64,000 nucleotides of DNA, taken from Dendrobates tinctorius (Eukaryota). The stretch lies in NCBI RefSeq assembly GCF_039654945.1, contig NW_027361768.1:5704001-5768000 (forward strand). Reading direction: 5' to 3'. A model generated the notes under the pieces. The model was not told where the DNA came from and made no database searches. It saw only the letters and a program-made list of their open reading frames with translations. This document shows positions 17,867 through 52,003 of the stretch, piece after piece (within the stretch, counting starts at the first letter, position 1; the number at the start of each line of letters is the position of its first letter). A program made the translations under genes and the position numbers.

Positions 17867-18882
17867 AGGCAAAGGGGTTGTCGGATCAGGTCATTTCCAC
17901 CCTACAGGCCAGTAGGAAGCCGGTGACATCCGCAATCTATCGAAGGATATGGAAAAGATTCTGTCTGGAGGGTGGCAGGTCCGATCTTGTGGCAGGCACC
18001 CCTGACCTCCCTAGCATACTAAACTTTTTGCAGTCAGGGTTTAATAAAGGCCTTAAGCCCAGCACTCTAAAAGTCCAGATTTCGGCCTTGAGTGCCTTCT
18101 TCAATTACCAGTTAGCTTCCCATCCCTGGGTAACAAGATTCATAAGAGCCACGTAGCGCCTGCACCCCACGATTAGGCAGCTCACCCCACCTTGGGACCT
18201 GTGCCTGGTACTCAGGTTTCTCTGTACAGACCCCTACGCCCCCAGCGAGAAAATAACAATCTATTCTCTTACTCATAAGACGGCCTTCCTGGTAGCCATT
18301 ACTACGGCCTAAAGAATAGGGGAGATCCATGCCCTGTCCACTAAGGACCCATATCTCCAGATAAGAGACAACTGTATAATCTTAAGATTGGACCCGGCAT
18401 TTATCCCAAAGGTAGCCTCTTCTAAAAACATAAACCAGGAGATAGTGTTGCCATCTTTCTGCGATAATCCCCGTAATAAAAAGGAAGAGCGTCTTCACTC
18501 ACTGGATGTGAGGCGCGCAGTCCAAGACTATCTTAAGGCCACCAATAGTTGGCGCATTGACCCAAATCTGTTCATCCTTTTTGGGGGTAAAAATAAGGGG
18601 AAAAAAGCCTCTAAGGCGTCCATCACACAATGGATTACCTCAGTAATCTCTGACGCCTACCAAGCCGAAGGCGCCAGTCCACCAAATTCCTTAAAGGCCC
18701 ACTCTACGAGGGCAGTATCGGCCTCAAGGGCCGAACGGGCGGGGGCCTCGGTCGATCAAATCTGTAGAGCAGCAACCTGGGCCAATCTTAATACATTCTG
18801 TAAGCACTCTAAGCTTGATGTGTTATCTGGTCAACAGACCACATTTGGGAGAAAAGTTCTCCAGGCGGTAATCCTACCCTGA
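17850..18882 (+). pseudogene. DIRS tyrosine recombinase, disrupted
   Basis: FLVAITTA*RIGEIHAL, LDVRRA, KAHSTRA, AATW...TFCKHS; stops at ~18154 and ~18310. Confidence 0.9.
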
Positions 18883-19732
18883 GGAGGTGCTTTGGTACTC
18901 TCCATGGTGCTGTCAGGTGGACATCCTGGAAAATAGGTATTAGACCTACCGGTAATGATGTTTCCAGGAGTCCATCCTGACAGCACGGGTAGTTCCTGAC
19001 CTATTTATGTTATCTTATGATTATTTCTTGTCATATGCTGTAATATGATTGTTTCATTAAAGTGTAACTTGCATTATCCACGTTGTGGTACTTGTTAAAT
19101 CACTGAGGGAGAGGGGGTGGGACATGACCTTTTAACCTCTCGTGTGCTTTTCCTGTCCCTGTAAGGAGGAGGGGGACATCCTCCCTGGTGCTGTCAGGAT
19201 GGACTCCTGGAAACATCATTACCGATAGGTCTAATACCTATTTTTATCCCAAATTTTGCATTTTCACAAAGGTAACAGGAGAAATTGCATTCCATACAAT
19301 TTGTTGAGCAATTTCTCCTGAGTATGCAGATACCCCATATGTAGGGGTAAAATGTTCTTTAGGTTCACGACTTGGCTCAGGATAGAAGGAGTGATATTTT
19401 GGAATGCAGACTTTGATGGAATGGTCTGGTCATGTCTTATTTTGAGGGCCTCTGATGTACCTAAGCAGTGGAAAACCCCACAAGTGATCCCATTTTGGAA
19501 GCTAGACCCCTTAAGGAATGTTTCCAGATGTGTGGTGAGCACCTTGAACTCCCAGCTGCTTCACAGAAGTTTATAACGTAGAGCAGTGAAAATAAAAAAC
19601 ACATTTTTCCCACAAAGATATTATTTTAGCCCCAATGTATTTAGTTTCACAAGAATAGCAGGAGAAAATTTATTGTGCAGTTTTTCCAGAGTACATTTAT
19701 ACCACATATGTGATCGAAAAACTACTTTTGAG

Positions 19733-25690: not shown

Positions 25691-27287
25691 TGTTCTGCCT
25701 TCTTCCACATATGACGCTGTGTGGATTCCAGCATACGGTTTAACTTTTCATCCACTCCCAGAAACAAGACTGTATGGGTGCTTAAGTCTATATTTATTGG
25801 GATGACATGGACAACAATGGGAGATGATAACAGATGGTAAAGTAGAACAGTAGTAGATATCATCAGAGGTTGTTGAACACAGATATGTATGATTTAGTAG
25901 ATTGATGTACAAAATGTGAATGATTCAGGTAAAAACGACAAGAGACAGATAATACAGCATGTCAGTACTGGTAGACAGTATACAATACACAAATACTGGC
26001 AGTTAATAACAATGCAACACACTCATTTTCAAGCTAATTATAGCTAAAAAGACCTCCAGTTTTTTTAGGAAAATATAAACAATTTTATTGAAACATATTA
26101 AAATTACATCAATAAACAGAGTTTCCCACTAAGCAGGCATGTAACACTGGGTAAATCCAAAATTAATACAATAGATATCACAATTTTACACGGCTATAAA
26201 AAATAACTACCATCCTGCAAGTGTCCCAAATAGAGTATATTACATATCAATGCTAACATATAGATTACTAATATTTCATCTCATAAGTCAGGCTCACTGC
26301 AAATCTGTGTACTTAGTGATTGTAGTGCTAAAGTGCTAGATAATATAAATCAGGCTCATTATAAACTACAAAATATGTCCTATGAGTCTATATCAAGATC
26401 CAGTGCTAGCAATAAATGCAATACTAACTAGATACTATATATAAAATTCACTACATGTGAAGTTATTTTATATTTCACTATTCGTGTATAACGAGAATCT
26501 AAGCAGAAATTCCATATTGGAGCTTGGCACCATACTTACAGAGGATGCTTAACTAGAGGATATTTATAACAAACATGCAGTGAAATAACATCACAGGAGC
26601 TGAGCATGCATTGCAAGCATCATGGGGGGCTGCATTATGGCCAGCTAACAGAGATGCATAACTAATAATTGCATTATCCTTACCAGAATCCACTTGTTAT
26701 AGCAATGGTTTTGCAAAGAGCTGAGCAGGTGCAAGCTACTTAGTGTTAGGGCTGGCGGAACGCACCAAATTATAAAATAATAGTAGGTGCGTTCGCAGCC
26801 CAGGGTCCATCGTGCAGAGGTGGTACACTGTTGCTAGGTAATGGAGGATGCTCTATATGGCGGTACAATGGCGGAACACACGCGGGTTAAACGTCACCGG
26901 TGTGCACAGGGCGAAATCTGTTGCTCCACAGAGCAGCACTACCGCTAAACACAAATACCGAGCCTGTTAAAGCTCACAGAGCTCGAGGAGATAAAACTCA
27001 GTATATGGTCACAGGACTTGTGCCCAAGAACACAGGGCCAGCGTCCATCTAGACCTACAGAGCGTGCGTCTTCGCGACCGCAAATGCCGCTAACTGAGGC
27101 TGACTGCAGCGTAGCGACACTGACTGCCGTGGTACGATAGTGCCCTATAGTAGGCGACACCATCGAACGCTAGTGCTGTGGACTGATGTGCATTGTGGCC
27201 TATAGCTTAGCCACTGACTCTCATACTATTGCCCTAACCACATGCGTAATATCCAAGGGAGGGGAATCTTAATAAGTCATTCACCAG

Positions 27288-29129
27288 ACTTTAAAGGGGC
27301 CAATGTAGCGAGGAGCAAACTTAGTGGACTCGACTCACAGCCTGATGTTACGGGCGGAGAGCCACACTAAGTTGCCAGGGGAGAAGGTTGGAGCAGGATG
27401 CCGATGTGCGTCCGCGGAGGACCTCATTCTCTCCTTAGAGGCCAGAATGGCAACCTGGGTGTGGTCCCAAATATCACTTGCCTCCACCGCCCAGTCTGCC
27501 ACCCTAGAGACAGTGGATGACACGGGCATGGGCACAGGAACACGAGGATGCTGGCCGTAGTTAAGGAGGAATGGTGTCTGGCCAGTGGAATCAGCCACAG
27601 TGTTGTTCAAGGCAAACTCTGCCCACAGCAACAAAGATGCCCAGTCATCATGCCTGGCCGAGACAAAATGTCGGAGATATGTGACCAGTGTCTGGTTGGC
27701 CCTCTCTACCAACCTGTTCGTCTCGGGATGATAGGCCGAGGAGAGATTCAGTTCAATACTGAGCAAGCGACAGAGCTTTCTCCAGAAGCGATACGCAAAC
27801 TGGGGGCCCCGGTCACTGACAATCTTGTCAGGCATGCCGTGTAAGCGGAAACCATGCTTGATGAACAGCACTGCTAAACCCCGTGCGGAAGGTAGCTGAG
27901 AGAGAGGCACCAAATTTTAGAAAAATGGTCGGTGACGACCCACATAACTGTGTTGCCACTGGACTTGGGTAGGCCCACCACAAAGTCCATGCACCATCTC
28001 CCAGGGCCTGTCCGCAACCGGTAAGTGGTAGAGTAACCCAGCAGGTCGTTGCTGGGAAGGCTTATTCTTGGCGCAGGAGACGCATGCCTGTATGTAGTCT
28101 TTGATGTCACAAGCCATATGCGGCCACCAGTATGTCCTTGCCAGAAGCTCAACTGTCCACTTAGTACCAAAGTGTCCACCCACCCTGGACGCGTGAGCCC
28201 AAGAGAGGACCTCTGGATGCAAACGGGCAGGAACAAAAGTCTTGCCAGGGGGGTACAGACTCAAGGGCGACTGGAGCCACTGTCCTCAGACTCTCCGATG
28301 GTTCGATTAACCGAGGCTCCTCCTTTTCCGCTGATGCCACGGAGCGAGAGAGCGCATCGGCTCAGACATTTCTTCTCACCAGAAAGGAAATGTAGGGTGC
28401 AGTGGAACCGGGAGAAGAAGAGAGACCATCGAGCTTGGCGAGAATTTAACCGCTGGGCGGTTTGGAGATAGACCAAATTTTTGTGGTCAGTGTAAACTTG
28501 GAAGGGATATCGAGCCCCCTCCAGGAGGTGTCTCCATTTAGAGAAGGCCAATTTCATGGCTATCAAATTCCTGTCCCCAATGGAATAGTTCCTCTCCACC
28601 AGAGAGAAGGTATTGGAAAAGAAGAAGCAAGGATGCTTTCGACCTTGAGCATCGTTTTGGAACAGGACTGCTCCAGCACCAACGGACGAGGCATCCACCT
28701 CTAAAATAAATGGCTTATCCACATTGGGGCGATGTAAAATGGGAGCACTAGCGAAGTGAGACTTGATGGAGAGGAAGGCCTTAGATACCTCCTCAGACCA
28801 CAATTTAGGATTCGCTCCCTTCTTGGTGAGGGCAACCAAGGGAGCTACCAAGTCGAGAAGTGCGGGATGAATTGGCGGTAATAGTTAATAAATCCCATAA
28901 AGCGCTGCACTGCTTTAAGGGAGTGAGGCTCCTGCAATCCATTACCGGCTGCAGTTTGGCAGGATCCATGGCCAACCCTTAGGCCAAGATGATATAGCCC
29001 AGGAAAGGCAACGATTCCTGCTCAAACACGCACTTCTCCAACTTGGCATATAGGACGTTTGCCCATAGGAGATCGAAGACTTTGCAAACCTCTCTCCAGT
29101 GGGACTCCAAATCTCGAGAGAAGATGAGA
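27288..29129 (-). pseudogene. pol: Gypsy A pol, 3' part (end of RT, RNase H, integrase)
   Basis: LEVDASSVGAGAVL, YTDHKNL, HASRVGGH..CVSC, MDFVVGLP, SDRGPQF, KFAPRYIGPF; frameshifted. Confidence 0.92.
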
Positions 29130-29422
29130 ATATTTGTGGCTATGCCTGCCGATGCCCCTCCAGCAGCAGCGCACGCCGCAACGTCTCCTTACCTACGCGC
29201 CCCCGTCCAGGCGCGCGCCCGTCCTGCGTTCCTCCTCACAGCTGCTCCTGGCACCCGCTCCCTGTTGCGCGCGCGCCCCCTCCCGCTCTCTCCCTCCAGC
29301 GGTGGGCGGCGCTGAGGGGCAGGACAGGGGGACGCACTTCCGGGTGCTGGGATACTTCAGGCGTCCTCGCTATGTGGAGGACGCCTGATGATCGTGTAGT
29401 CTCCTGCACCCTCTGGCCGCTA

Positions 29423-29670
29423 CAGTCCTCTGTAGTTCCTCTTGTCCCTTCTCTGCCCCCCTGCCGTGCCCTCTGTCACAGTCCTCTGTTGTTCCTCCAG
29501 TCCATGCCCTGCCTCCCTACCGTGCCCTGTGTCACAGTCCTCTGTTGTTCCTCCAGTCCATGCCCTGCCTCCCTGCCGTGCCCTGTGTCACAGTCCTCTG
29601 TTGTTCCTCCAGTCCATGCCCTGCCTCCCTGCCGTACCCTGTGTTACAGTCCTCTGTAGTTCCTCTTGTC
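29423..29670 (+). repeat. 56-bp tandem repeat inside LTR B (mirrored at ~36110-36350)
   Basis: cagtcctctgttgttcctccagtccatgccctgcctccctgccgtgccctgtgtca, ~4.5 copies. Confidence 0.85.
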
Positions 29671-29953
29671 CACTCTCTATCTCACTGCCTTGTCCTGTGT
29701 CTCATTCCTCCGTCCGTCAGTCCCGGGTTCGTATCAAAGCCATCCTTCTCCCTAGTCCTTATTTGTCTGTGGAGCCGTCCCTCTTGGTTCCGGCTGTTGC
29801 GCTTCCGCCCCCTGTGGTCCTGCCCCAAACGATCCCTGTATAGGGCTCAGTCTTCACCTGGAGTCCTCGGCCCAGGGGCTCCGGATCCGTGATCCAGAGG
29901 GTCCACTCTCCGACGTAGCTCTTACCTAAGAAACGTCACAGTATCATCAGGAC

Positions 29954-30979
29954 ATGGACCCCGCCGGTGCCGCGGCTGCCACTCAAAAGGAACTACTGTT
30001 CTTAAGGGAAAATCAGACCCGGATTATGTCCTTCATGAAATCCAAGGACACCCGGCTTTCCGCCCTGCAAACCGCTGACCCTGGGCACGCCCCCCTCTTA
30101 GCCAGTCTCCATCAGGAGCTCGCACAGCAGCGTGACGCTCAATCTCACATTCTGGGGTACATGGCGTTCGTAGATGATCGGCTGCTTGCCCTGCAGTCCT
30201 CCGCGGCCGCCTCTACCCAACCCCGGGACGCTGTCCCAGCTCCCCCTCCCCGCCTTGGAAAGCCGCCCAGGTATGATGGGGACCCGAAGTTGTGTGGGGG
30301 ATTTTTAAACCAGTGCAGACTGCACTTTGAGCTCCTGCCCCAACAATATCCCACGGACCGCGCTAAGGTGGCCTTTATTGTGTCCCATCTTGAGGGAGAG
30401 GCACTGGCTTGGGTGAATCCCTTATGGGAGAGAGATGACCCGGTGGTCACCAGTATCCAGAGTTTTTTGGAAACATTTTGCAAGGTATTTGATGAGCCCG
30501 GGCGCCTTGCTTCCACTACGGAGGCCCTCTTTAACCTTCGCCAGGGATCCCTGACGGTAAGGCAGTACGCCATCCATTTCCGGACCCTGTCCTCGGAGCT
30601 AGGGTGGAATAATGAAGCTCTTGTAGGTGCCTTTTGGAGAGGTCTTTCTAGTAAAATCAAGGATGAGCTGGCCTGGCGTGACTCTCCAACCACCCTGGAA
30701 GATCTCATCTCTCTGGCTACTCGTATTGATCTGCGCTTTCAGGAACGCGCCAGAGAGTCAGCCAGGGAGAGAAGGCCCTTTAGGTTATACCAAGCCCCCA
30801 TTCCGCGCGCTGTTGCACCCTCTAGTAACTCCGCTCCTGAGCCTATGCAGGTGGATCGCGTCAGGCTGTCCGAACAACGGCACAGGGAGAGGATGACTAA
30901 TGGACTCTGTTTATATTGTGGAGGGGCCAACCACTTCGTACGCACTTGTCCTGAGAGACCGGGAAACGCATCCACCTAG
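29954..30979 (+). CDS. gag: Gypsy B Gag (341 aa, uninterrupted; PEG10/sushi-type capsid plus CCHC knuckle)
   Basis: YDGDPKLCGGFLNQC, LEGEALAW, LRQG, PEPMQVD, CLYCGGANHFVRTC. Confidence 0.92.
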   Translation: MDPAGAAAATQKELLFLRENQTRIMSFMKSKDTRLSALQTADPGHAPLLASLHQELAQQRDAQSHILGYMAFVDDRLLALQSSAAASTQPRDAVPAPPPRLGKPPRYDGDPKLCGGFLNQCRLHFELLPQQYPTDRAKVAFIVSHLEGEALAWVNPLWERDDPVVTSIQSFLETFCKVFDEPGRLASTTEALFNLRQGSLTVRQYAIHFRTLSSELGWNNEALVGAFWRGLSSKIKDELAWRDSPTTLEDLISLATRIDLRFQERARESARERRPFRLYQAPIPRAVAPSSNSAPEPMQVDRVRLSEQRHRERMTNGLCLYCGGANHFVRTCPERPGNAST

Positions 30980-31006
30980 GCCAGGTAGGAGAGGGCTCCC
31001 TAGGTG
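30961..31006 (+). promoter_or_regulatory. -1 ribosomal frameshift signal (G GGA AAC plus downstream stem)
   Basis: gggaaac followed by cacctagg...cctaggtg pairing, as in PEG10/sushi elements. The same heptamer occurs in Gypsy C at ~40930. Confidence 0.8.
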
Positions 31007-34000
31007 ATCAGACCCCCTCTCTTCCACTTACTCTTTCAGCTCTGCTTATTACAGGTCGGGGGCGTGGCTCCATGGAGGCGTATGTGGACTCGGGCGCAGC
31101 GGGCAACTTCATCCACCAAGAAGAAGTGGACAAACTCCAGATTCCCGTGGTTGTCCTAAGAAATCCGCGAGCAATCACCTCTGTCAATGGCAAACCTCTG
31201 CCCGGACTCGTCACCATGGTTACCACCGAAGTTGAGTTACAAATTGGTGCACTTCACTTCGAGAAGATTGCCTTTTATGTCCTGCCTCAACTATCCCACG
31301 CCATTCTCTTAGGGTTACCCTGGCTCAGGCGGCATGAGCCAGTTGTCGACTGGCGCTCCGGGGAGATCTTGCGCTGGGGCACGCCTGCCATGCACGCTGT
31401 TTGCGGGCCTTTGTTCGTCCCCATTCTCTGCCTAGGCCAACCGATCTCCCGGGCCTTCCTGTTCCATACCACGCCTACGCTGATGTTTTCTGCAAGAAGG
31501 AAGCGGTTTCCCTGCCTCCACATCGGTCCTATGATTGCCCTATCGACCTGATTCCCGGAGCTGTCCCTCCCAGAGGAAGAACGTACCCTCTTTCGCCAGC
31601 CGAGACCTCTGCCATGACGGAATACATTCAGGAAAACCTGACCAAGGGGTTTATCCGGAAGTCCTCTTCCCCTGCGGGCGCAGGTTTTTTCTTCGTCCGG
31701 AAGAAGGACGGATCCCTGCGGCCTTGTATAGATTACCGGGGCCTAAACAATATCACCGTTAAAAACCGATATCCCCTTCCGTTGATTCCTGAGCTCTTTG
31801 ACCGGCTGAGGGGAGCTCGGATCTTCACAAAGTTAGATCTGCGGCGGAGCTTACAATTTGATCCGGATCCGTGCAGGGGATGAGTGGAAAACGGCCTTCA
31901 ATACCCGTGACGGGCATTATGAATACTTAGTCATGCCATTTGGTCTTTGCAACGCACCAGCTGTATTTCAAGAAATTATCAACGAGGTGTTCCGTGATCT
32001 GCTCTATTCCTGTGTGGTGGTGTATTTAGACGACATTCTCGTTTTCTCGCCCGATCTGTCCTCCCATCGCAGGAGCGTACGCTTGGTCTTGCATTGCCTT
32101 CGAGAGAATCGACTCTACGCCAAGATTGAGAAATGCCTTTTTTAGCAGACGTCATTGCCCTTCTTGGGATATATCGTCACCGATTCCGGTCTGAAGATGG
32201 ATCCCGAAAAACTCAGTGCGGTACTCAAGTGGCCCCGTCCAGTGGGGATAAAGGCCATCCAGCGGTTCCTTGGGTTCGCAAACTATTACCGTCAATTCGT
32301 GCCTTATTTTTCTACGGTTACCAAACCCATCACGGCCTTGACCCGTAAGGGAGCAAAACCCAACATCTGGTCCCCCGAAGCTGAAGACGCCTTCCTGGCT
32401 CTGAAACGTTCTTTTGCATCTGCACCCATCTTGCACCGGCCAGTGACCAGCAGGCCCTTCGTCCTAGAGGTGGACGCCTCCTCCACTGGAGCAGGGGCGG
32501 TCCTGTCCCAGCAGGCTTCATCTGGGCGCCTGGTTCCCTGCGGTTTTTTTTCTAAAACCTTTTCGCCTGCGGAGTGCAACTACTCCATTGGAGACCGGGA
32601 ATTACTTGCCATTAAGATGGCCTTGGCTGAATGGCGATATTTACTCGAGGGGGCTGTACATCCTTTCACCATCCTTACGGACCACAAAAATCTGGCTTAC
32701 CTGCAGTCTGCCCAAAGACTCAATGCCCAGCAAGCCAGGTGGGCCCTGTATTTCTCCCGCTTTGACTTTCAACTTCACTTTCGACCTGGTAATAGGAACA
32801 TCAAGGCCGATGCCCTTTCCAGGTCGTTACAGTCACCGGAGAGGGATGAAGACCCATCCTATATTATCGAGCCTGCTAAGATGATCACCGTGGCTCCTGT
32901 GAATTTCTCCACTCCCCCGCCAGGTAAAACTTTCGTCCCTCAAGGCAGACGTTCAGAGGTGCTGCGCTGGGGGCATTCCTCCAAAGTTGCTGGGCACATT
33001 GGGACTAAGAAGACTCTCTTTCTGCTTTCCCGGTATTACTGGTGGCCCACGCTTCACCAGGATGTGATGGACTATGTAGCCTCGTGCACAACCTGTGCCC
33101 AGAACAAGGTGGCTAGGGCTTTGCCCTCCGGTCTTCTTCACCCATTACCAGTTCCTGAGGCTCCTTGGCAGCAAATTGCTATGGATTTGGTGACTGATTT
33201 ACCCTGCTCAGCTGGATGTACCACCATCTTAGTCATAGCAGATCGTTTTTCCAAGATGGCCCACTTTGTTCCCTTACCGGGACTGCCGTCCGCCCCGAAG
33301 TTGGCCGAGATCTTCATCCACCAGATCTTCAGGCTGCATGGTCTTCCTCAGCGGATTGTGTCAGATCGGGGGGTCCAGTTTACCTCTCGCTTCTGGAGGG
33401 CTCTCTGTCGGCTTATGGGTACATCTCTCGACTTCTCCTCTGCATACCATCCTCAGACCAACGGGCAAGTGGAGCGAATTAATCAGGTGTTAACTACCTT
33501 CTTACATCACTTCTCCAACGCCCATCAGGACAATTGGGTCGCGCTCCTACCTTGGGCTGAATTCTCGCACAATAACCATCCCAGCAAATCTACCGCCAAG
33601 TCACCATTCTTTGTGGTAACCGGCCAAAATTCAGGTGTTCCGCTACCCTTCTCCACGTCTACGGGAGTGCCCGCAGCAGATTCACTCGCAATGGAATTCT
33701 CGCAGATTTGGAGGGAGACCAGGGAAGCGCTCAAGAGTGCCAATAACCGAATCAAGAAACATGCGGACAAAAGACGAAAGGAAGTGCCTCCGTACCATCC
33801 GGGTGACAAAGTCTGGCTTTCAACTCGACATATCCGTCTGAGAGTTCCCTCTTACAAGTTGAGCCCTCGGTACATTGGACCGTTTGAAGTGATCGGACGC
33901 ATTAATGAGGTGGCTTATAAGCTGAGGTTGCCTGCTTCGCTCCGGGTTCCCAACGCCTTCCATGTCTCGCTCTTGAAACCCGTAGTCCTGAACCGGTTCC

Positions 34001-34229
34001 AACCAGTTTCCATCACCCCTCCATCACCAGTTGCTTCGGACGACGTCTTTGAGGTCAAAGACATCTTGGCTATGAAAAAAGTCAAGGGAAAGACCCTTTT
34101 CCTTATCGATTGGAGGGGTTTTGGCCCTGAGGAAAGGTCCTGGGAGCCCCGAGAGAATATCAATGCCCCCCGGATTCTGAAAACGTTTTTGGCCAATCTC
34201 AGTAGGGGAGGACGTAAGGAGGGGGGTAC
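30980..34229 (+). pseudogene. pol: Gypsy B pol (protease, RT, RNase H, integrase, chromodomain), few lesions
   Basis: VDSGA, YLDD, DAS, HHCC, D-D-E, FEVKDIL..WRGFGPEERSWEP; frameshifts at ~31380 and ~31845, stop at ~32143. Confidence 0.93.
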
Positions 34230-36645
34230 TTGGTCAGGTTTTCCTGAATGTATTCCGTCATGGCAGAGGTCTCGGCTGGCGAAAGAGGGTACGTTCTTCC
34301 TCTGGGAGGGACAGCTCCGGGAATCAGGTCGATAGGGCAATCATAGGACCGATGTGGAGGCAGGGAATCTGCTTCCTTCTTGCAGAAAACATCAGCGTAG
34401 GCGTGGTATGGAACAGGAAGGCCCGGGAGATCGGTTGGCCTAGGCAGAGAATGGGGACGAACAAAGGCCCACAAACAGCGTGCATGGCAGGCGTGCCCTC
34501 AGCGCAAGATCTCCCCGGAGCGCCAGTCGACAACTGGCTCATGCCGCCTGAGCCAGGGTAACCCTAAGAGAATGGCGTGGGATAGTTGAGGCAGGACATA
34601 AAAGGCAATCTTCTCGAAGTGAAGTGCACCAATTTGTAACTCAACTTCGGTGGTAACCGTGGTGACGAGTCCGGGCAGAGGTTTGCCATTGACAGAGGTG
34701 ATTGCTCGCGGATTTCTTAGAACAACCACGGGAATCTGGAGTTTGTCCACTTCTTCTTGGCGGATGAAGTTGCCCGCTGCGCCCGAGTCCACATACGCCT
34801 CCACGGAGCCACGCCCCTGACCTGTAATAAGCAGAGCTGAAAGAGTAAGTGGAAGAGAGGGGGTCTGATCACCTAGGGGGCCCTCTCCTACCTGGCCTAG
34901 GTGGATGCGTTTCCCGGTCTCTCAGGACAAGTGCGTACGAAGTGGTTGGCCCCTCCACAATATAAACAGAGTCCATTAGTCATCCTCTCCCTGTGCCGTT
35001 GTTCGGACAGCCTGACGCGATCCACCTGCATAGGCTCAGGAGCGGAGTTACTAGAGGGTGCAACAGCGCACGGAATGGGGGCTTGGTATAACCTAAAGGG
35101 CCTTCTCTCCCTGGCTGACTCTCTGGCACGTTCCTGAAAGCGCAGATCAATACGAGTAGCCAGAGAGATGAGATCTTCCAGGGTGGTTGGAGAGTCACGC
35201 CCGGCTAGCTCATCCTTGATTTTACTAGAAAGACCTCTCCAAAAGGCACCTACAAGAGCTTCATTATTCCACCCTAGCTCCGAGGACAGGGTCCGGAAAC
35301 GGATGGCGTACTGCCCTACCGTCAGGGATCCCTGGCGAAGGTTAAAGAGGGCCTCCGTAGTGGAAGCAAGGCTCCCGGGCTCATCAAATACCTTGCGAAA
35401 TGTTTCCTAAAAACTCTGGATACTGGTGACCACCGGGTCATCTCTCTCCCATAAGGGATTCACCCAAGCCAGTGCCTCTCCCTCAAGATGGGACACAATA
35501 AAGGCCACCATAGCGCGGTCCGTGGGATATTGTTGGGGCAGGAGCTCAAAGTGCAGTCTGCACTGGTTTAAAAATCCCCCACACAACTTCGGGTCCCTAC
35601 CATACCTGGGCGGCTTTCCAAGGCGGGGAGGTGGAGCTGGGACAGCGTCCCGGGGTTGGGTAGAGGCGGCCGCGGAGGACTGCAGGGCAAGCAGCCGATC
35701 ATCTACGGACGCCATGTACCCCAGAATGTGAGATTGGATTTCATGAAGGACATAATCCGGGTCTGATTTTCCCTTAAGAACAGTAGTTCCTTTTGAGTGG
35801 CAGCCGCGGCACCGGCGGGGTCCATGTCCTGATGATACTGTGACGTTTCTTAGGTAAGAGCTACGTCGGAGAGTGGACCCTCTGGATCGCGGATCCGGAG
35901 CCCCTGGGCCGAGCACTCCAGGTGAAGACCGACCCCTATACAGGGATCGTTTGGGGCAGGACCACAGGGGGCGGAAGCGCAACAGCCGGAACCAAGAGGG
36001 ACGGCTCCACAGACAAATAAGGACTAGGGAAAAGGATGGCTTTGATACGAACCCGGGACTGACGGACGGAGGAATGAGACACAGGACAAGGCAGTGAGAT
36101 AGAGGGTGGACAAGAGGAACTACAGAGGACTGTAACACAGGGTACGGCAGGGAGGCAGGGCATGGACTGGAGGAACAACAGAGGACTGTGACACAGGGCA
36201 CGGCAGGGAGGCAGGGCATGGACTGGAGGAACAACAGAGGACTGTGACACAGGGCACAGCAGGGCATGGACTGGAGGAACAACAGAGGACTGTGACAGAG
36301 GGCACGGCAGGGGGGCAGAGAAGGGACAAGAGGAACTACAGAGGACTGTAGCGGCCAGAGGGTGCAGGAGACTACACGATCATCAGGCGTCCTCCACATA
36401 GCGAGGACGCCTGAAGTATCCCAGCACCCGGAAGTGCGTCCCCCTGTCCTGCTCCTCAGCGCCGCCCACCGCTGGAGGGAGAGAGCGGGAGGGGGCGCGC
36501 GCGCGACAGGGAGCGGGTGCCAGGAGCAGCTGTGAGGAGGAACGCAGGACGGGCGCATGCCTGGACGGGGGCACGTAGGTAAGGAGACGCTGCGGCGTGC
36601 GCTGCTGATGGAGGGGCATCGGCGGGCACAGCCGCCGATGTCACA

Positions 36646-38583
36646 ATATCATCCAGATAGACAACCACCGAAGAGGAAAGCATATCTCGAAAGATATCGT
36701 TTACAAAGTCTTGAAAGATGGCTGGGGCATTACATAGGTCAAAGTGCATGACCAGACACTCATAATGGCCATCCCTGGTATTAAAAGCCGTCTTCCACTC
36801 GTCTCCCTCATGTATGTGTATCAGGTTGTAGGCTCCCCGCAGATCGAGTTTGGTAAATACTCTTGCTCCTCACAACCTATCGAACAGCTCCGATATCAGG
36901 GGCAGAGGGTACTTTTTCTTAACGGTGATGGCATTAAGACCCCTGTAATCGATGCAAGGTCGCAATTCACCGCTCTTCTTCTGCACAAAGAAGAATCCCG
37001 CCCCTGCTGGTGACACCGACTTCCTAATATATATCCTGGTCAGATTCTCCTTGATGTACTGTGACATGGCCTCCGTCTCCGGGAGAGACAGGGGATACAC
37101 ATGACCCCGGGGAGGCTCTGCACCAGGCAAGAGGTCTATAGGACAGTCGTAGGGGCAGTGCGGCGGGAGAGTCTCTGCCGCTTTCTTGGAGAACACATCT
37201 GCGTACTGCTGATAGTGTTTAGGGAGCGAAGAGAGATCTGCAGGAGCCGCAGTGGCGGCAACCTGAACGCACTTGCTCAGACATCTACCCTCACAGGACT
37301 TACTCCAACTAAGAATTTTCCCCGAGGACCATTCAATATGGGGAGAGTGGCAATGCAACCAGGGAACTCCCAAGAGAACCTGATCGATACCCTCGGGCAT
37401 AATAAGGAGGGACACTGTCTCGTGATGGGACGAAGACAATGATAGTCTTAATGGAGCAGTCTGATGGGTAATCTGCGAGGGTAATGTCGAGCCGTTCACC
37501 ACTCTGATGGTGACCGGCTGAGGTAGCATAACCAAGGGGATTGCGTGCTGGAGAACGAAGGCTGAGGACATAATATTACCCTCCGCTCCGCAAGCCTCCA
37601 CCACCAGAGTGGAGGAGCTGAACTCCAGCACCCCCTTGAAGGTTAGCTTGGAGGAAAATGGTGTGGTGTCTCGTAACCCTCCTGCTGTTGCCACTAGACA
37701 CAAGCGTTTCTCCGAGCGCTGTGGGCACCTATTGGCAAAGTGACCAGACTGTCGGCAGTGGGAATGAGGTATGGGAGTTCGAGCAGGACGGAACTTAGAG
37801 CATGTGCGAGGCACCTCCATAACCACCGATCACTTGGACGCTCGATCGGGTGGCTCCAGATGTTTAGAGAAAGTTGGAGCCAACCTAAACCTCTGTCTGG
37901 ACTGGAAGTGCTCCAACCCTCGCTCTAAGAAGCAGAGATTAATGAAGGTGGAGATGGTAATAAGCTCCTCCAGAGTACCGGGAACCTCCCGAGTGGCCAG
38001 AGCATCCTTATCGTGGTCAGCCAAACCCCTCCAAAAGATTGGTATTAGGGCCTTATCTGACCATTCCAACTCGGAAGCCAGTGTCTGAAAACGAATGGCA
38101 TACTGGCTGACCGGAGTACGAACCCTGTGTCAGGGCCAACATCTGGAGCGCGGTATCGAGTGTGACCCTTGGTCCCAGAAAGACCTGCTTCAGATAATCT
38201 AGGAATGGAGAGGCTCTCTGAACCGCAGGGTCACCACGCTCCCACAGTGGGGTGGCCCACTCCAGAGCCCTGCCAGCCAGAAGGGAAATGATTAATCCGA
38301 CCTTAGCCCGCTCAGAGGAGAATCGTGCGGCCAGCAGCTCTAACTGAATAGCACACTGGCTCATGAATCCCCTACAGGAGGCACTATCGCCCGAGAACTT
38401 CTCGGGCAGCGGGAGGTGGGATAACATCGGTGCAGGGATGGAAGTGGAAATACGGGAAACAACCTCCGTGGCTGCCTGAGCAGCGGCCGCAGTAAAATTC
38501 ACAGATGAGGTTGAACGCTCGAGAGCCGCCAACCTGACTCCCAGCTGCCGAATGTGCTACAGTAGCGGCTGTTTATCCGCCAT
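36646..38583 (-). pseudogene. Gypsy A gag, protease and 5' RT
   Basis: [54 protein letters not shown]. Confidence 0.9.
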
Positions 38584-40047
38584 TACTAGCCAGACCCTGG
38601 CGCTAGTATAATGTTAGGGCTGGCGGAATGCACCAAATTATAAAATAATAGTAGGTGCGTTCGCAGCCCGGGGTCCACCATGCAGAGGTGGTACACTGCT
38701 GCTAGGTAATGGCGGACACTCTATATGGCGGTACAATGGCGGAACACACATGGGTTAAACGTCACCCGGTGTGCAGAGGGCGAACTCTGTTGCTCCACAG
38801 AGCCGCACTACCGCTAAACACAAATACTGAGCCTGTTAAAGCTCACAGAGCTCAAGGAGATAAACGCTCAGTATATGGTCACAGAACTCGGGCCCAAGGA
38901 CACAGGGCCAGCGTTCCTCTAGACCTACTGAGCGTGTGGCATCGCAACCGCGAACGCCACTAACTGAGGCTGACTGCAGTGGAGCGACAGTGACTGCCGC
39001 GGTGCGATAGTGCCCTATAGTAGGCAACACGATCAGTGCTGTGGACTGATGTGCATTGTGGCCTATAGCTTAGCCACTGACTGGCGCTGACTCTCATACT
39101 ATTACCCTAACCACATGCGTAATATGCATAATATCCAAGGGAGGGGAATCTTAATAAGTCATTCACCAGGTAGATGCATCCATCATCATCCACACATATA
39201 GCAACTAGAGTCTATACTAGCGCATGGCCGAGCGGCCATGCGAGTCTTTTAAGGCCAAGATCTCCCGGAACCTTCCAGATCCCCCTGATGGACCAATCAG
39301 AACTGGAGAAGGACCTGAGCATGTGACTCCCGATCCCCAATGGGGAATCGTCCTATGAGCATGCTCAGTGGAGCAACGGAAGGACTTAGATTCTGGAGTC
39401 TTTTGCTGCTGGCCAGGCTGCATGTCATGATCCCAGTGCAGGTTTTTGAGCTGCACACCTGGGGTTAATGTCTGGAGCTCGGTGCAGGTTTTGACCTGCA
39501 CACCTGGGGTCAATAATTGTGGCCTCTTTCTGGTTCTGGGAGAGCTTCTTAAACCCCTGGGAAGCTTCAATCCCCGCCAGTTAAACTTTTGCCTTTGGCC
39601 TAGTGTGCTGACCCCCGTGTGCCTGTTTGTTGTTATAGCTTGTTGCTAGTATCTCTGTGTATGACTCATTGCCTGTGACCTGACTACTCTCTGCTCGCCC
39701 CTCCTGTACCTATGCAGCTATCTCTGTGTGTGACTCATTGGCTATGTCTTGACTATTCTCCCTGTCTATGCCCCCTGGTTACTTTGTCTCGCAGTTACCC
39801 TGCTAGGAGTTATCTTGCAGCTCCTAGCTCTGTGGAGTTTAGGCCATGCCCCTAGCAGTCACGTGCTTCAGGTCCTTTGGCTCTGAAGTAAGCATCTACT
39901 CGGCTGCTGCCCGCTCCACAGGTATCTTTGAGCACTGTTCGCTTTACTCAGGACCCGCGCACTGGCTCAGTGATCAAGTTCAGTGCGGTGTTCCTGACAT
40001 AACTGGTCTACAATTTTTTTTTTTTCTTCTCTCCTCACTTCTGCAGC

Positions 40048-40941
40048 ATGGACCCAATGTGTGCTTTATCTGAGCAGGTGAAATGCTTGACTCAGTCACT
40101 GCAGAAGCTTAGTTTGGAACACCAAGCTCTGGCCCAGTCCCAAGGGCGGGTTGAGGACTCAGTTCAGGGGGTACTTTCCGCAGGCTTCCAGCAGGTGGGG
40201 AATAGAGATATCATTTTAGTCCCACCCGAATCCCCGGTTAAATTGCCAGATAAATTTTCTGGTAACAAGGATGATTTCAGGGCATTTACGGAGGGCTGTA
40301 AGCTCTTTTTCTCTTTGAGACCCCGCTCCTCTGGGGATGAGAAACAGAGGGTGGGGGTGGTGATGTCCCTACTTTGAGGGTCCCCACAAGCCTGGGCATT
40401 TTCGCTTTCCTCTTCTGCCCCTGAGAGAATGTCTGTGGATGCGTTTTTTGAAGCCTTAGCACATATTTATGATGAGCCTGATAGAGTGCGGTTGGCTGAG
40501 GACAAGGTGATGAGTGTCTGTCAGGGGGAGCACTCGGCCAAATGGTTCTGTACTGAATTCAGACATTGGGCAGCCGAGATTTCCTGGAGTGATGCCGCCC
40601 TTCGGGGGCTGTTCCACAGAGGCCTGTGTGAACGTCTGAAGGATGCTTTGGCACTTCATCCTCCACCTGACTCCCTGGAGGATGCCATGATCCAAGCAGT
40701 TCGCATGGATCGCAGGCTGCGGGCTAGAGGCACTATGCAATGGGAAACACCATTATTCTTCAGTGGAGATGAGACCCGGACACTTCCTATGGCTATGGAG
40801 GTGAGCGCTGTCACCTGTGAGGGAAAGGAAAGAAGACGCCGCCGGGAAAAGCAGTTGTGCTTCTATTGTGGGAAATCTGGACATTGGAAGAAGGACTGTC
40901 CCTCCTGTCCGTCATCCTCCAAGATGGCGGGAAACGACTAA
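40048..40941 (+). pseudogene. gag: Gypsy C gag (one internal stop)
   Basis: LPDKFSG, CFYCGKSGHWKKDC; stop at 40375-40377. Confidence 0.9.
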
Positions 40942-43900
40942 GCCTGGGTAGTAGTCGAGGAGGCTACCCAGACCTTCAGGTACAATTTTCCTCATGTGCA
41001 AAAATGGTGCTGCAGATGGAACTGGAACTTGGTTATGGTCCTGTTCAGACTACTGCTTTTATTGACTGCAGTTCTGCTGTGAACCTGATTGATACCAAGG
41101 TTAGGACTCTTAATAAGATAGGGACAGTCAGGCTTCACGATCCTGTTAAACTTGTGGCAATTGACTCGTCTCCTCTTACCCAAGACGGTATCTGTTGCAG
41201 GTCTGAACTTTTTTCTCTCAAAGTGGGTTCCACTCATGTGGAAAAACTAAGTTGTCTTAGATAACTTGCCTGCAGTCCTGGTACTGGGGATGCCTTGGCT
41301 TCAATGCCATAATCCTACCATTGATTGGGTTACAGGGGAAATCACTCAATGGGGATGCAATAATAAATGTGGTAACCTAGGACATCTTGTTAACGCTGTT
41401 AAATCCGTGTCTGTGTCATCTGTCGGTCTGGAAGGTATTCCGGAGTACCTGAAGGATTTCAAAGATGTTTTTTCTGAAAGTGAGGCTGAGGCACTGCCAC
41501 CACATAGACCCTACAATTGTGCCATTGATTTAGTACCCAGAGCCAAGTTACCTAAGGCTCGATTGTTCAATTTGTCTGGGCCTGAGCGCCAAGCCATGAA
41601 GGAGTACATAGCTGAGAGCCTCCACAAAGGGCATATCAGGCCTTCTGTGTCACCTGTGGCAGCAGGGTTCTTCTTTGAAGAAAAAAGATGGTGGTTTGCG
41701 GCCGTGCCTCGACTTTCGGGAGCTGAACAAGATAACGGTTAGGAACTCATACCCGCTTCCCATCATCCCAGATTTATGTAACCAGTTAGCGGGGGCCCAA
41801 TGGTTCTCCAAGTTAGATCTGCAGGGGGCCTACAATCTGATAAGGGTTCGGGAAGGGGACAAGTGGAAAACGGCATTCCTCACATTAGAAGGACTCTATG
41901 AGAACCTGGTAATGCTGTTAGGGTTAACTAATGCACCCGCTATTTTTCAAAATTTCATCAATGTTGTGTTTTCTGATCTGATAGGCCATTTTGTTATTGT
42001 TTATTTGGATGACATTTTGGTGTATTCTCCGGACAGTCAATCTCACTTGCAACATCTTAAGACAGTTCTCCAGAGACTCAGGGAGAACCAATTGTTCGCT
42101 AAATTGGAAAAATGTTTGTTTTTTGTACAGGAGCTGTCTTTTTTGGGGTTGAATGTGTCCTGTGAGGGGTTTCGTATGGATCCTAAGAAGGTGCTAGCGA
42201 TCGCTGACTGGGTTCAGCCTCGAGATCTCAAGGGACTCCAGCACCTCTTAGGATTTGCAAACTATTACCGGAGATTCATTAAAGGTTTCTCACAAGTGGT
42301 TAAACCACTCACAGATCTTACCCAGAAGGGCGCTGATGTAAAAAATTGGTCTGTACTCGCTAAGGAATCCCTCTCAGCAATTAAGAAATGTTTCATGTCT
42401 GCCCTGGTGTTGGTACAACCTGACCCGTCCAAACCATTCATTATGGAGGTGGATGCTTCTGAAGTGGAGGTGGGGGCTGTGCTGTCCCAGGGTCCGGCCA
42501 CCCTTACCAATCTCAAACCCTGTGCCTTCTTCTCCAAGAAGTTCTCTTCAGCTGAGAAAAACTATGATGTAGGCAATAGGGAACTTCTTGCGGTCAAGCA
42601 GGCGTTTGAGGAATGGAGGCACTTTTTGGAAGGTGCGGCTCACCCTATCACGGTTGTCACGGATCACAAAAATTTGGCATACCTTGAATCTGCTAAGAGG
42701 CTTACTCCTAGACAAGCCCATTGGTCACTTTTTTTTTCGCGATTTCAGTTCTCCATTACTTTTTGACCGGGGTCCAAAAATGTTAAAGCAGATGCCCTGT
42801 CCAGAAGTTTTGATCCAGTGTCTCCCCCTGAGCCACCATCCTCCATTCTTCCCCCAGGGGTGGTAGTGGCGGGGGTCTCAACTGAGTTGGAACAAGAAAT
42901 TCTAAGGGCTCAGGCCCTAGCTCTGGCAACCAGGCCAGGGGATAAACTGTTTGTTCCAGATTCATTGCGGCCTAGACTTCGGCAGGAGTTTCATGAGTCT
43001 AGGCTGAGTGTTCATCCAGGTATCACGGCCACTAGAGAGGCAGTAGCCAGGGGTTTTTGGTGGCCTTCATTAAGGTCCGATGTCAAGGAATTTGTTTCTG
43101 CTTGTGGCATGTGTGCCCGTTCCAAAAGCTCGCATAACCGACCAGCTGGGGAACTCATACCTTTACCGGTTCCTGATAGGCCATGGACTCATCTTTCCAT
43201 GGATTTTATTACTGGCCTTCCACCTTCCAGGGGCAATACCGTGATCTGGGTGGTGGTGGATAGGTTTTGTAAACAGGCCCATTTCATTCCCTTGGCAGCA
43301 TTACCCTCAGCGGAAGCATTGGTTGTTTGTGCAGCATGTGGTCCGATTGCATGGGGTACCCCTGAATGTTGTGTCTGACAGAGGTGTGCAGTTTGTGGCC
43401 AAATTTTGGAGGGCATTCTGTATGAAATTGGGCATCTCACTCTCCTTCTCGTCGGCATATCACCCGGAGAGTAATGGTCAGACTGAACGCACCAATCAAT
43501 CCCTGGAACAAATTCTCAGGTGTCTGACCTCCGCCAGACAGGAGGATTGGTGTGATGCGTTACCGTTGGCTGAATTCGCTTTTAACAACCGGGTGAGTCA
43601 GTCCACTGACATGTCCCCATTCCTGATTAACTATGGGTTTAGTCCGCATTTTGGGGAGTTTTCTCGGGTGGATTCCGGTTGTCCAGGGGCAGAGGGGTCC
43701 GTTCAACGGTTAAAAAACCTCTTGGCTGAAGTCCGGCATAATATCTCTCGGCCCCAGGGGAGATACAAATATTTTGCTGACAAAAAGAGAGCCTCGGGAG
43801 ACATGTTTAAGGTGGGAGAGAAGGTTTGGCTCTCCACAAGTAACATCAACTTAAAGGTACCATCAGCTAAGTTGGGACCAAAGTTCATTGGGCCGTATGA

Positions 43901-44249
43901 GATTATGGAGTTAGTCAACCCAGTGGCATATAGGTTGCGTCTCCCCGCCTCCTTAAAAATATCCAATGTGTTCCATAAATCTCTGTTGAAACCCGCAGGA
44001 TCTGTCAAAGAGAACTCTGAGTCTGTTGTTCCTCCAGTGCTGGTGGAGGGTCAATTGGAGTATGAGGTCGGACATATTGTGGACTCTCGGCGGGTGCGCC
44101 GCTCTTTACAGTACCTGGTCCACTGGAAGGGATATGGACCAGAGGAGCTCTCATGGGTCCCCGCTCGCTCGGTACATGCAGATCGCCTGGTTTGGGCTTT
44201 CCATGCCAAGTACAAGGGGAAGCCTGGGGGTCCAGAGGCCCCCCATTGA
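40942..44249 (+). pseudogene. pol: Gypsy C pol with chromodomain, disrupted
   Basis: FIDCSS, YLDD, EVDAS, SMDFITGLP, SDRG, GQTER, YEVGHIVDSRR..QYLVHWKGYGPEE. Confidence 0.92.
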
Positions 44250-45152
44250 GAGGGGGGTACTGTCATGATCCCAGTGCAGGTTTTTGAGCTGCACACCTGG
44301 GGTTAATGTCTGGAGCTCGGTGCAGGTTTTGACCTGCACACCTGGGGTTAATAATTGTGGCCTCTTTCTGGTTCTGGGAGAGCTTCTTAAACCCCTGGGA
44401 AGCTTCAATCCCTGCCAGTTATACTTTTGCCTTTGGCCTAGTGTGCTGACCCCCGTGTGCCTGTTTGTTGTTATAGCTTGTTTATATGGTTCTGACCCGG
44501 TTCTGTTTCCCGTTGTGAGTTTGACTGTTGATTTTGTACTGTGTTAGTATCTCTGTGTATGACTCATTGCCTGTGACCTGACTACTCTCTGCCTGCCCCT
44601 CTTGTACCTTTGCAGCTATCTCTGTGTGTGACTCATTGGCTATGTCTTGACTATTCTCCCAGTCTATGCCCCCTACTCGGCTGCTGCTTGCTCCACAGGT
44701 ATCTTTGAGCACTGTTCGCTTTACTCATGACACGCGCACTGGCTCAGTGAGCAAGTTCAGTGCGGTGTTCCTGACACTGCATTGTCATACCTGAACCAGA
44801 GGTGGCAGTTGCATCCGTTCCCTCACTGCTGGTCTGGACAGAGCACTGGGACCGATGAGTCTGCTGAGCAGGCTCCACTGCAGCCTAAGGAGAATGGGGC
44901 ATCGCCGAGTGCAAGGCTCTGGATTCCTGCTGTGCAGTGGCAGGAACCTGACACTTAGGAGATGGCTGGAGAATGGTTACATGTTGTTGACCTGGGCAGA
45001 AAGAAGGGGCGGTTCTGAACAATTAACCATTTGTGAGAACAGAAGATTCCAAAGACATGAATAAAAGAGAAGGGCAACTTATGACACCTAATGGCCATAG
45101 CTGTAACAGCACTTAAAAATATCTAGCTACACAGAATGGGCAGAACAGAGTG

Positions 45153-48046: not shown

Positions 48047-49359
48047 CATAGAATCGTAGAGTTGGAAGGGACCTCCTGGTCCAACCCCCTGCTCAAAGCA
48101 GGATTTGCTAAATCATCCCAGTCAGATGTCTGTCCAGCCTCTGTTTGAAGACTTCCATTGAAGGAGAACTCACCACTTCTCGTGGCAGCCTGTTCCACTC
48201 ATTGATCACTCTGTCAAAAAGTTTTTTCTAATATCTAATCTGTGTCTCCTCCCATTCAGTTTCATCCCATTGCTTCTAGTCTTTCCTTGTGCAAATGAGA
48301 ATAAAGATGATCCTTCTACAATGTGACAGCCCTTTAGATATTTGTAGACAGCTATTAAGTCTCCTCTCAGTCTTCTGTTTTGCAAACTAAACATTCCCAA
48401 ATCCTGCAAACTTTCCTCACAAGACAGGGTTTGCAGACCGGTCACCATTCTGGTCGCTCTTTTCTGAACTTGCTCCAGTTTGTTGATGTCTTTTTTAAAA
48501 TGTGGTGCCCAAAACTGGACACAATATTCCAGATGAGGTCTGACCAAAGAGGAGTAGAGGGAAATAATGACTTCACGTGATCTAGACTGTATGCTTCTGT
48601 TAATACATCCTAGAATTGCATTTGCCTTTTTTGCTGCTGCATCACACTGTTGACTCATATTCAGTCTGTGATCTATTAGTATACCCAAGTCTTTTTCACA
48701 TGTGCTGTTGCTTAGCCCCATTCCTCCCATTCTGTATATGCTTTTTCATTTTTATTGCCCAGATGTAGTACTTTGCATTTTTCCCTGTTAAAAACCATTC
48801 TGTTAGTTGCTGCCCACTGCTCCAGTTTATTTATATCTTTTTGAATCCTCTCTCTCTCTTCTCTAGTATTAGCTATCCCTCCTAGCTTTGTGTCATCAGC
48901 AAATTTAATCAGTTTACCCTCAATTCCTTCATCTAAATCGTTGATAAAGATGTTGAACAATTAGCATATCAAAAACCAGGCTCATCATAAGCTGCAGCAG
49001 GTGTTCACACACCTAATAAGTGCATTTAACCACTCCACTGAAGGATCAGGAAAAGCAAGAGAACAACAGGAGTTTTTAAGATAAAAGCATGAACAATCTT
49101 TATTGTTGTATACAAAGATAAAAGGACATTACAAAAATAGATAATGCATAGAAATTGACACCAAAAAGACCAGAATATAAACCGCCAGGCTGTAAAGTAA
49201 TACTAGGTAATACAGATGGTTAGCACTCGGCCAGGGGGTTCCAGTTCGCGGTGCCAGTGAGAAGGAACGGATAGTCCCAGAATCGCATAAACAATGTATA
49301 GTCACTGCACACACTGATTGTACTTAATGTGAAGTAAATTTATTGCTTGACAGTGAGGA

Positions 49360-49411
49360 AGCGACATCAAACGACGTTTCGGCCACATCAGCCTTTATCA
49401 CAAAGTCGCTG
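49360..49411 (-). ncRNA. Hammerhead-like motif of PLE 2 (variant core)
   Basis: AGCGAC uuug UGAUAAA GGCU-gaugu-GGCC GAAAC GUC GUUU gau GUCGCU; inverted copy at 51953-52003. Confidence 0.55.
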
Positions 49412-51220: not shown

Positions 51221-51475
51221 TTAGATTAGCCAATCGATTTCTCGATTGAGACCCCTCGGATGTAAGGTGTCTAGTGTGTGGATCCAGAATGTCTCCCGTT
51301 GCTTTAAAAGGCGAACATGGTTCCCACCTCTTTTGGGTCTAGGGACTTTTTCAATAATTTGGAACCGTAGTTGTGATACGTTGTGTCGGGCTTCCTTGAA
51401 ATGGGCAGGAAGTGGGAGCCATGTTTTCCCGCATCTAATCGTAGACTTGTGACTGGATATTCTGTCCCTGATTGC
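51221..51475 (-). pseudogene. GIY-YIG endonuclease C-terminal half (PLE 2)
   Basis: IRDRISSHKSTIR...HF...H...LRFQIIE...RETFWIHTLDTLHPRGLN. Confidence 0.88.
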
Positions 51476-51952: not shown

Positions 51953-52003
51953 AGCGACTTTGTGATAAAGGCCGATGTGGCCGAAACGTCGTTTGATGTC
52001 GCT
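51953..52003 (+). ncRNA. Hammerhead-like motif of PLE 2, inverted copy
   Basis: agcgactttgtgataaaggccgatgtggccgaaacgtcgtttgatgtcgct. Confidence 0.55.

What the first reader, a model, noticed from the sequence alone, without database searches (positions are those of the whole stretch)
29130..36650. Fold-back Gypsy provirus integrated with two U3 ends
After a near-complete gag-pol, the sequence switches exactly at the PPT/3'-LTR boundary (34229) into an inverted copy of LTR-gag-protease-5' RT (revcomp of 29135-31646). The whole 7.5 kb is still bounded by TG..CA and a 5-bp TSD, so integrase appears to have used two left ends. The arms differ (a ~100-bp gag deletion in the right arm, a 9-bp deletion in the left, scattered substitutions), which argues against a read artefact. 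Inference: a template switch during plus-strand completion. The result is two convergent LTR promoters and 2.4-kb arms able to form long dsRNA, a potential siRNA/piRNA source against its own family.
Basis: partly seen in the sequence, partly recalled or inferred. Interest (0 to 1): 0.75.

Follow-up and report, generated by a model that had tools for sequence, protein, structure and literature searches.

The report
Retrotransposon inserted with two left ends
A dead jumping-gene copy whose right end is a mirror image of its own left third, most likely because two unfinished DNA copies were joined tail to tail before insertion; if transcribed it would fold into long double-stranded RNA, but no transcription is shown.

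Summary
The structure is real in the sequence. A Tf1/sushi-type chromodomain Gypsy retrotransposon (29135-36645) sits in the RT of an older Gypsy. Where its 3' LTR should start (34229/34230) lies an inverted copy of 29135-31646, so both outer ends are U3 ends. Corrections: the target-site duplication is 4 of 5, the left end has a 9-bp gap two bases in, and pol is broken. The arms differ at 39 of 2407 columns, CpG-enriched eightfold, 9 versus 9 by side, with no synonymous excess. That looks like decay in place of arms that began near-identical, not like read error. Both flanks continue one host RT. Public contigs neither show nor exclude the junction, because this locus's own alleles were also unseen. 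Best reading (0.6): two unfinished reverse-transcription products were joined through a 2-nt overlap at the PPT boundary and integrated by two U3 ends. Rivals: tail-to-tail double insertion with central deletion, a later replication template switch, or an artefact. The copy cannot replicate; small-RNA output is untested. I found no published natural case in ten library searches.

The parts
29130..29134 (.). left copy of target-site duplication (ATATT)
   Evidence: 4 of 5 match with the right copy
29135..29940 (+). 5' LTR, TG..CA, 806 bp; U3 about 29135-29383, R/U5 from about 29384 (inferred from the self-primer); 9-bp gap near 29137 relative to the right copy
29384..29392 (+). predicted self-primer, 9 nt complementary to the primer-binding site
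   Evidence: pair probability 0.9-1.0 in a fold of 29384-29975 and 28 of 5000 LTR shuffles reach 9 nt
29422..29710 (+). 56-bp tandem repeat, 5.2 copies, inside the LTR (mirrored at 36069-36349)
29941..29951 (+). primer-binding site (self-priming type)
29954..30979 (+). gag, 341 aa, open
   Evidence: Pfam Retrotrans_gag 1.6e-14, Ty3_capsid, DUF4939
30980..34215 (+). pol: protease, RT, RNase H, integrase, SH3, chromodomain (about 34048-34188); broken near 31376, 31845 and 32143
   Evidence: Pfam; frames
31647..34228 (+). single-copy spacer between the arms, 2582 bp
34216..34226 (+). polypurine tract
   Evidence: same motif before the 3' LTR of the neighbour at 44261
34229..34230 (.). junction; two letters (CT) fit both the normal PPT/LTR continuation and the inverted RT piece
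34229..35838 (-). inverted internal arm: PBS, gag (stop near 35408, 97-bp gap at 35736/35737), protease, 5' part of RT up to the equivalent of 31646
35839..36645 (-). inverted LTR, 807 bp, its U3 start facing the right flank; 8-bp gap in the tandem repeat
36646..36650 (.). right copy of target-site duplication (ATATC)
26744..44953 (-). older host Gypsy element, flanked by CTTAG on both sides; its RT is interrupted just after the YxDD motif by the fold-back element
   Evidence: LTR pair 38 of 536 columns differ (7.1%)

Best explanation
Before integration, two unfinished reverse-transcription products of one Gypsy sub-lineage were joined tail to tail. One plus-sense strand ran from U3 to the PPT/LTR boundary, where plus-strand synthesis must begin displacing the PPT-primed LTR strand and where RNase H cuts. 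The other had reached only the 5' part of RT. Their 3' ends paired by two bases and were copied through, by an RT jump or by host end joining, giving a linear duplex with a U3 end on each side. Integrase inserted it as one unit with a 5-bp stagger into an older Gypsy. The arms have since decayed under CpG methylation. The copy has no direct R repeat and so cannot complete first-strand transfer: a dead end. Shown: anatomy, boundary, host continuity, decay pattern. Inferred: the joining step, which polymerase did it, and whether one or two RNAs were involved.
For: Junction within 0-1 nt of the PPT/LTR boundary defined by a neighbouring element; a random deletion end would hit a 5-nt window 0.1-0.6% of the time for spans of 5000-806 bp. 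Both flanks are adjacent parts of one RT: query residues 22-137 on the right, 134-199 on the left; both neighbours have 5-bp duplications. Arm differences: CpG columns 20 of 277 versus 19 of 2130 elsewhere, p=8e-10; CpG loss 9 left, 9 right; 5 of 23 codon changes synonymous against 31% expected under neutrality. Arms (1.6%) are closer than the host's LTR pair (7.1%), as nesting requires. Both arms share the window letter at 13 of the 18 right-arm rows shown, 7 of them against at least 94% of laid depth. RTs including Tf1 RT clamp 2-nt 3' overlaps with a C or G in vitro (PMC3035444, passages). RSV integrase performs concerted integration with U3 oligonucleotides alone (PMC7955051, passages). 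Template-switch complexes flanked by one TSD are known in grasses (PMC1950507, whole text).
Against: The duplication is 4 of 5 (chance about 4% at the non-CpG rate) and sits beside a 9-bp gap and further changes, so the left end is not a clean integrase joint. A 2-nt overlap arises in 16% of random joins. The clamp assay needs an adjacent annealed strand, and Tf1 RT clamped mainly in Mn2+. No junction-spanning contig was listed. One copy only; no genome was held to look for others. The shared alleles show a common sub-lineage, not a common template: the long contigs laid carry 1-9 other letters per 100-150 nt, mostly 7-9, and may be a sister subfamily.
Confidence: 0.6

Rival explanations
1. 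Two sister copies inserted tail to tail at one target site during a burst, forming a long palindrome; an asymmetric central deletion then removed both 3' LTRs and 2.6 kb of one copy.
For: It gives the same outer duplication and two outward U3 ends with normal integrase chemistry. Inverted LTR tandems with a target-like spacer exist in Drosophila, e.g. Rover (PMC5932611, passages). Sister copies from one burst would share sub-lineage alleles and be about 1.6% apart today. Instability of long palindromes is recalled knowledge.
Against: The deletion end must fall on the PPT/LTR boundary by chance, 0.1-0.6%. No remnant of either 3' LTR lies at the junction.
Confidence: 0.15
2. A normal insertion was rearranged later by a replication or repair template switch that replaced the 3' LTR with an inverted copy of the 5' part.
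For: The LTR's terminal inverted repeat offers 6 nt of homology at the right end: the U5 end and the reversed U3 start both end in GTCACA. The G-rich PPT could stall a fork (inference). It explains arms that began identical.
Against: It needs two switches, both exactly at LTR borders, and the inner one has only 2 nt of overlap.
Confidence: 0.13
3. Assembly or library artefact joining two family copies, or skipping the centre of a palindrome.
For: The family is highly repeated (summed depth in the hundreds to tens of thousands per bin), and no contig spanning the junction was listed.
Against: Arm differences are CpG transitions spread evenly over both arms, not read errors. The host RT and the host's own duplication are intact across the insertion. 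A misjoin would need overlaps of only 2 and 6 nt. At 8 of the 40 rows shown, no laid contig in any of the four runs carried the window's letter, so the locus is not visible in those data.
Confidence: 0.07

Closest known systems
Tf1/sushi group of chromoviruses (Ty3/Gypsy; sushi-ichi, Tf1)
   Same: gag, PR-RT-RH-IN order, C-terminal chromodomain, self-primer complementary to the PBS, TG..CA ends with a short inverted repeat, 5-bp duplication
   Different: No 3' LTR in direct orientation; the copy is a non-replicating rearrangement. Phylogenetic placement was not run.
Template-switching complex insertions of grasses (Sabot and Schulman 2007, PMC1950507)
   Same: Two element bodies fused, by the authors' model during reverse transcription, and inserted once with one TSD
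   Different: Those are direct, three-LTR, U3/U5-ended and joined through R homology; this one is inverted, U3/U3-ended and joined at the PPT with 2 nt
Inverted TE tandems by double insertion (McGurk and Barbash 2018, PMC5932611)
   Same: Two oppositely oriented LTR element parts at one site
   Different: Their example keeps a 6-nt motif at the tandem junction; here both inner LTRs are absent and the break is at the PPT boundary
Autointegration inversion circles (SISYPHUS, Ty1; PMC7197481)
   Same: Inverted retrotransposon DNA made inside particles
   Different: Those are circles with LTR-end junctions made by integrase; this is a linear, integrated product whose inner junction has no LTR end
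DIRS retrotransposons with inverted terminal repeats (search listing)
   Same: Inverted terminal repeats and scope for convergent transcription
   Different: DIRS use a tyrosine recombinase and replicate in that form; this element encodes a DDE-type integrase and has a target-site duplication

Membership tests
Tf1/sushi chromovirus (Ty3/Gypsy) | Domain order gag, PR, RT, RNase H, integrase | tested here: met
   Pfam
Tf1/sushi chromovirus (Ty3/Gypsy) | Chromodomain at the integrase C-terminus | tested here: met
   PF00385, 6.5e-11; definition in 10.1101/2022.12.06.519325 (passages)
Tf1/sushi chromovirus (Ty3/Gypsy) | Self-primer in the LTR complementary to the PBS | tested here: met
   9-nt complement, pair probability at least 0.9, 28 of 5000 shuffles; transcript start is inferred
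Tf1/sushi chromovirus (Ty3/Gypsy) | 5-bp target-site duplication and TG..CA ends | tested here: inconclusive
   TG..CA present; duplication 4 of 5, or 4 bp plus one extra base; both neighbours have perfect 5-bp duplications
Tf1/sushi chromovirus (Ty3/Gypsy) | RT-IN phylogeny places it in the group | not tested
   No tree run; Atlas feature neighbours include chromodomain clusters from fungi, chordates and plants, a lead only
Canonical LTR retrotransposon insertion | Two LTRs in direct orientation | tested here: not met
   LTRs are inverted; no LTR follows the PPT
Template-switching complex (Sabot and Schulman) | One flanking TSD and near-identical outer LTRs | tested here: met
   4 of 5 duplication; LTR copies differ at 16 of 798 columns
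Template-switching complex (Sabot and Schulman) | Third internal LTR, all in direct orientation | tested here: not met
   No internal LTR
Double-insertion inverted tandem | Element ends and a target motif kept at the inner junction | tested here: not met
   Inner junction is PPT to RT; a later deletion cannot be excluded
Hairpin small-RNA locus | Transcribed across both arms, with small RNAs from the stem | not testable with these tools
   No RNA holder listed; contigs cannot show small RNAs
DIRS | Tyrosine recombinase, no DDE integrase | tested here: not met
   rve and H2C2 integrase domains

The most novel reading that the evidence does not exclude
U3/U3-ended insertions broken at the PPT boundary are a recurrent by-product of Gypsy reverse transcription, missed by LTR finders that need direct repeats, and each one is a ready-made hairpin or convergently transcribed locus that lets an active family seed small RNAs against itself in a single step.
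Probability: 0.15. Interest if true: 0.78.

Novelty: new variant of a known kind. Interest (0 to 1): 0.47.

Why it matters
If the reading holds, this is a genomic record that a Gypsy integrase inserts DNA with two U3 ends in a germline, and that the PPT/LTR boundary is a point where unfinished copies get mis-joined. It defines a simple searchable signature (inverted LTRs, one TSD, break at the PPT) that standard LTR annotation would miss. It also suggests a one-step route to a long dsRNA against gag and protease of an active family. As a single dead copy without expression data its biological weight is modest.

Tried and rejected
Whole genome: none held, so no search for other copies, for U3 start variants or for the family's usual TSD. 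Sequencing runs: 24 listed, best share of words 0.31, no RNA holder listed. Contigs of 4 of those 24 runs (one sample) were laid on 31647-36060: no joint at 34229 among the 9 joints listed and none among the 24 loose ends shown (524 not shown); one deep contig of run X1 fits 34229-34337 and has 23 letters left over, as a normal RT copy would. This is uninformative for the junction, because the window's letters were unseen at 8 of 40 rows shown (122 rows not shown). The flanks and the U3 ends were not in the stretch laid. Integrase autointegration rejected: the inner junction has no LTR end. Ectopic recombination between two distant inverted copies rejected: it would swap the flanks, yet the host RT is continuous. 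Two diverged active templates not supported: no synonymous excess. The higher U3 divergence (9 of 249) is not significant once CpG content is allowed for, P=0.11. Earlier scan notes: nothing found. Ten library searches showed no natural U3/U3 insertion; two returned nothing; most hits were seen as listings only, subscription journals are largely missing, and supplements were not read (Supplemental Table S2 of PMC5932611 lists inverted tandems and may bear on this). No homologue search or tree was run.
Full report
Observation. The region 34229-36645 is the reverse complement of 29135-31646. A global alignment gives 39 substitutions in 2407 columns, 30 of them transitions, and four gaps: 9 bp missing on the left near 29137, 8 bp missing on the right in the LTR tandem repeat, 97 bp missing on the right in gag, and 1 bp near 31376/34499. 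The spacer is 2582 bp. The outer ends are TG at 29135 and CA at 36645. The flanking 5-mers are ATATT and ATATC, so the duplication is 4 of 5, or 4 bp plus one extra base. The window holds no N.

What the element is. The left part is a Ty3/Gypsy element: LTR 29135-29940, open gag of 341 aa, protease, RT, RNase H, integrase, SH3 and chromodomain. Eleven bases after the LTR include a 9-nt complement to 29384-29392; these pair with probability 0.9-1.0 in a fold of the leader, and 28 of 5000 LTR shuffles do as well. Chromodomain plus self-priming defines the Tf1/sushi group (10.1101/2022.12.06.519325, passages). Pol is broken near 31376, 31845 and 32143 on the left; the right arm has stops in gag and at the end of protease. 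Both arms are broken at the same codon near 31376/34499, in different ways, which may mean the source was already defective there. The host species was not determined; a vertebrate, perhaps an amphibian, is my inference from the element mix.

Surroundings. The element lies in the RT of an older minus-strand Gypsy (26744-44953, flanked by CTTAG twice). A third Gypsy (39423-44776, flanked by CTGCA twice) sits in the host's 5' LTR. With the third element's RT as query, the right flank matches residues 22-137 and the left flank 134-199, so the flanks are adjacent parts of one RT. LTR pairs differ by 7.1% (host, 38 of 536) and 3.1% (third, 14 of 456), the arms by 1.6%: the fold-back element is the youngest, as nesting requires.

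The junction. The third element ends its PPT with a G-tract and TAC, then its LTR starts. In the fold-back element the same motif ends at 34229 and the inverted arm starts there; 34229-34230 fit both sides. A 2-nt overlap is unremarkable alone (16% of random joins). The position is what matters: a random end would hit a 5-nt window 0.1-0.6% of the time. The exact RNase H cut site in this family is unknown.

Real or artefact. Columns in a CpG in either arm differ at 20 of 277, others at 19 of 2130 (p=8e-10). CpG loss is 9 on the left and 9 on the right. Of 23 changed codons 5 are synonymous, 17 missense and 1 a stop, against 31% synonymous expected under neutrality. This is how two copies decay in a methylated germline, not how reads err, and it fits arms that were near-identical at insertion. 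Contigs of four runs of one sample, laid on 31647-36060, show a very abundant family and no listed joint at 34229. That blank carries no weight: at 8 of the 40 rows shown the window's letter had no depth in any run. Of the 18 rows shown inside the right arm, 13 have both arms agreeing against the contigs' letter (7 against at least 94% of depth) and 5 have the left arm agreeing with the contigs. So the arms share a sub-lineage. The laid depth may come mostly from a sister subfamily, so this does not prove one template.

Mechanism. Read on either strand, the element is two plus-sense pieces, both starting at U3, joined at their 3' ends: one ends at the PPT/LTR boundary, the other in RT. The simplest origin is that two unfinished products paired by two bases and were copied through, giving a duplex with two U3 ends. 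The PPT-side partner could be a plus strand stalled where displacement synthesis starts, a second RNA cut at the PPT, or an opened one-LTR intermediate joined by host repair; I cannot separate these. A fold-back of one strand on itself is possible but needs a further priming to open the hairpin. RTs, Tf1 RT among them, extend 2-nt 3' overlaps in vitro under stated limits (PMC3035444, passages). RSV integrase assembles and integrates with U3 oligonucleotides alone (PMC7955051, passages). Against a clean story, the left end is untidy: a mismatch in the duplication (about 4% by chance), the 9-bp gap and nearby substitutions. I give this reading 0.6, tail-to-tail double insertion with central deletion 0.15, a later replication switch using the 6-nt terminal inverted repeat 0.13, artefact 0.07.

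Consequences. With no direct R repeat, a transcript cannot complete first-strand transfer, so the copy is a dead end and further copies with this junction are not expected except by duplication of the region (inference). A transcript from either LTR would enter the opposite arm. The only AATAAA on each strand lies at 35497 (top) and 30379 (bottom), which would still leave a stem of about 1.3 kb; a read-through would give about 2.2 kb. Whether either LTR fires is unknown; no RNA holder was listed, and the CpG decay points to methylation.

Comparison and novelty. Template-switch complexes with one TSD are known in grasses but are direct and three-LTR (PMC1950507, whole text). Inverted LTR tandems by double insertion are known in Drosophila, and the same paper notes unexplained internal inversion junctions (PMC5932611, passages). 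Autointegration gives inversion circles with LTR-end junctions (PMC7197481, passages). HIV proviruses with inversions or asymmetric LTRs are reported (PMC9278108, passages). Passages of PMC6894440, PMC12789967, PMC10069891 and PMC7166211 added no matching case. Ten searches showed no natural U3/U3 insertion broken at the PPT, within a library that lacks most subscription journals. That Ty1 integrase accepts two U3 ends in vitro is recalled and was not found. Verdict: a real-looking, unusual single copy; a new variant of known aberrant LTR insertions; interest 0.47, rising to about 0.78 if it proves a recurrent class that yields small RNAs.

Noticed in passing
window 57362-58973: Tc1/mariner element with 210-bp terminal inverted repeats at 99% and an open 366-codon frame (HTH_SB, HTH_Tnp_Tc3_2, DDE_3); looks young.
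   Followed up: partly
window 13889-19244: DIRS-like element: LAP2alpha and RT frames, inverted ends 13896-14012/19097-19213 and an internal complementary stretch 18930-18986/19188-19244; no recombinase hit was found in the frames tested.
   Followed up: partly
window 39423-44776: Third Gypsy with chromodomain inside the host's 5' LTR, CTGCA duplication, LTRs 3.1% apart with different internal gaps; also has a 7-nt PBS complement in its LTR.
   Followed up: partly
window 26744-27287: The host's 3' LTR is cut to about 540 bp and abuts integrase sequence; its PPT and part of U3 appear deleted.
   Followed up: no
window 49045-56230: Interleaved inverted repeats at 96-98% (49045-49200/56075-56230, 49285-49893/51472-52078, 52075-52291/55872-56088) around frames of 120-254 codons with no Pfam hit; unexplained, perhaps nested DNA transposons.
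   Followed up: partly
window 61041-63995: 69-bp tandem array, over 40 copies at 85% match, running to the window end; the unit is a multiple of three and gives long open frames.
   Followed up: no
window 56183-57076: Minus-strand RT fragment (RVT_1, 8.6e-22) next to the Tc1 element.
   Followed up: no
window 31376 and 34499: Both arms have their pol frame broken at the same codon in different ways (frameshift left, stop right); either two hits at one site or a defect already in the source.
   Followed up: partly
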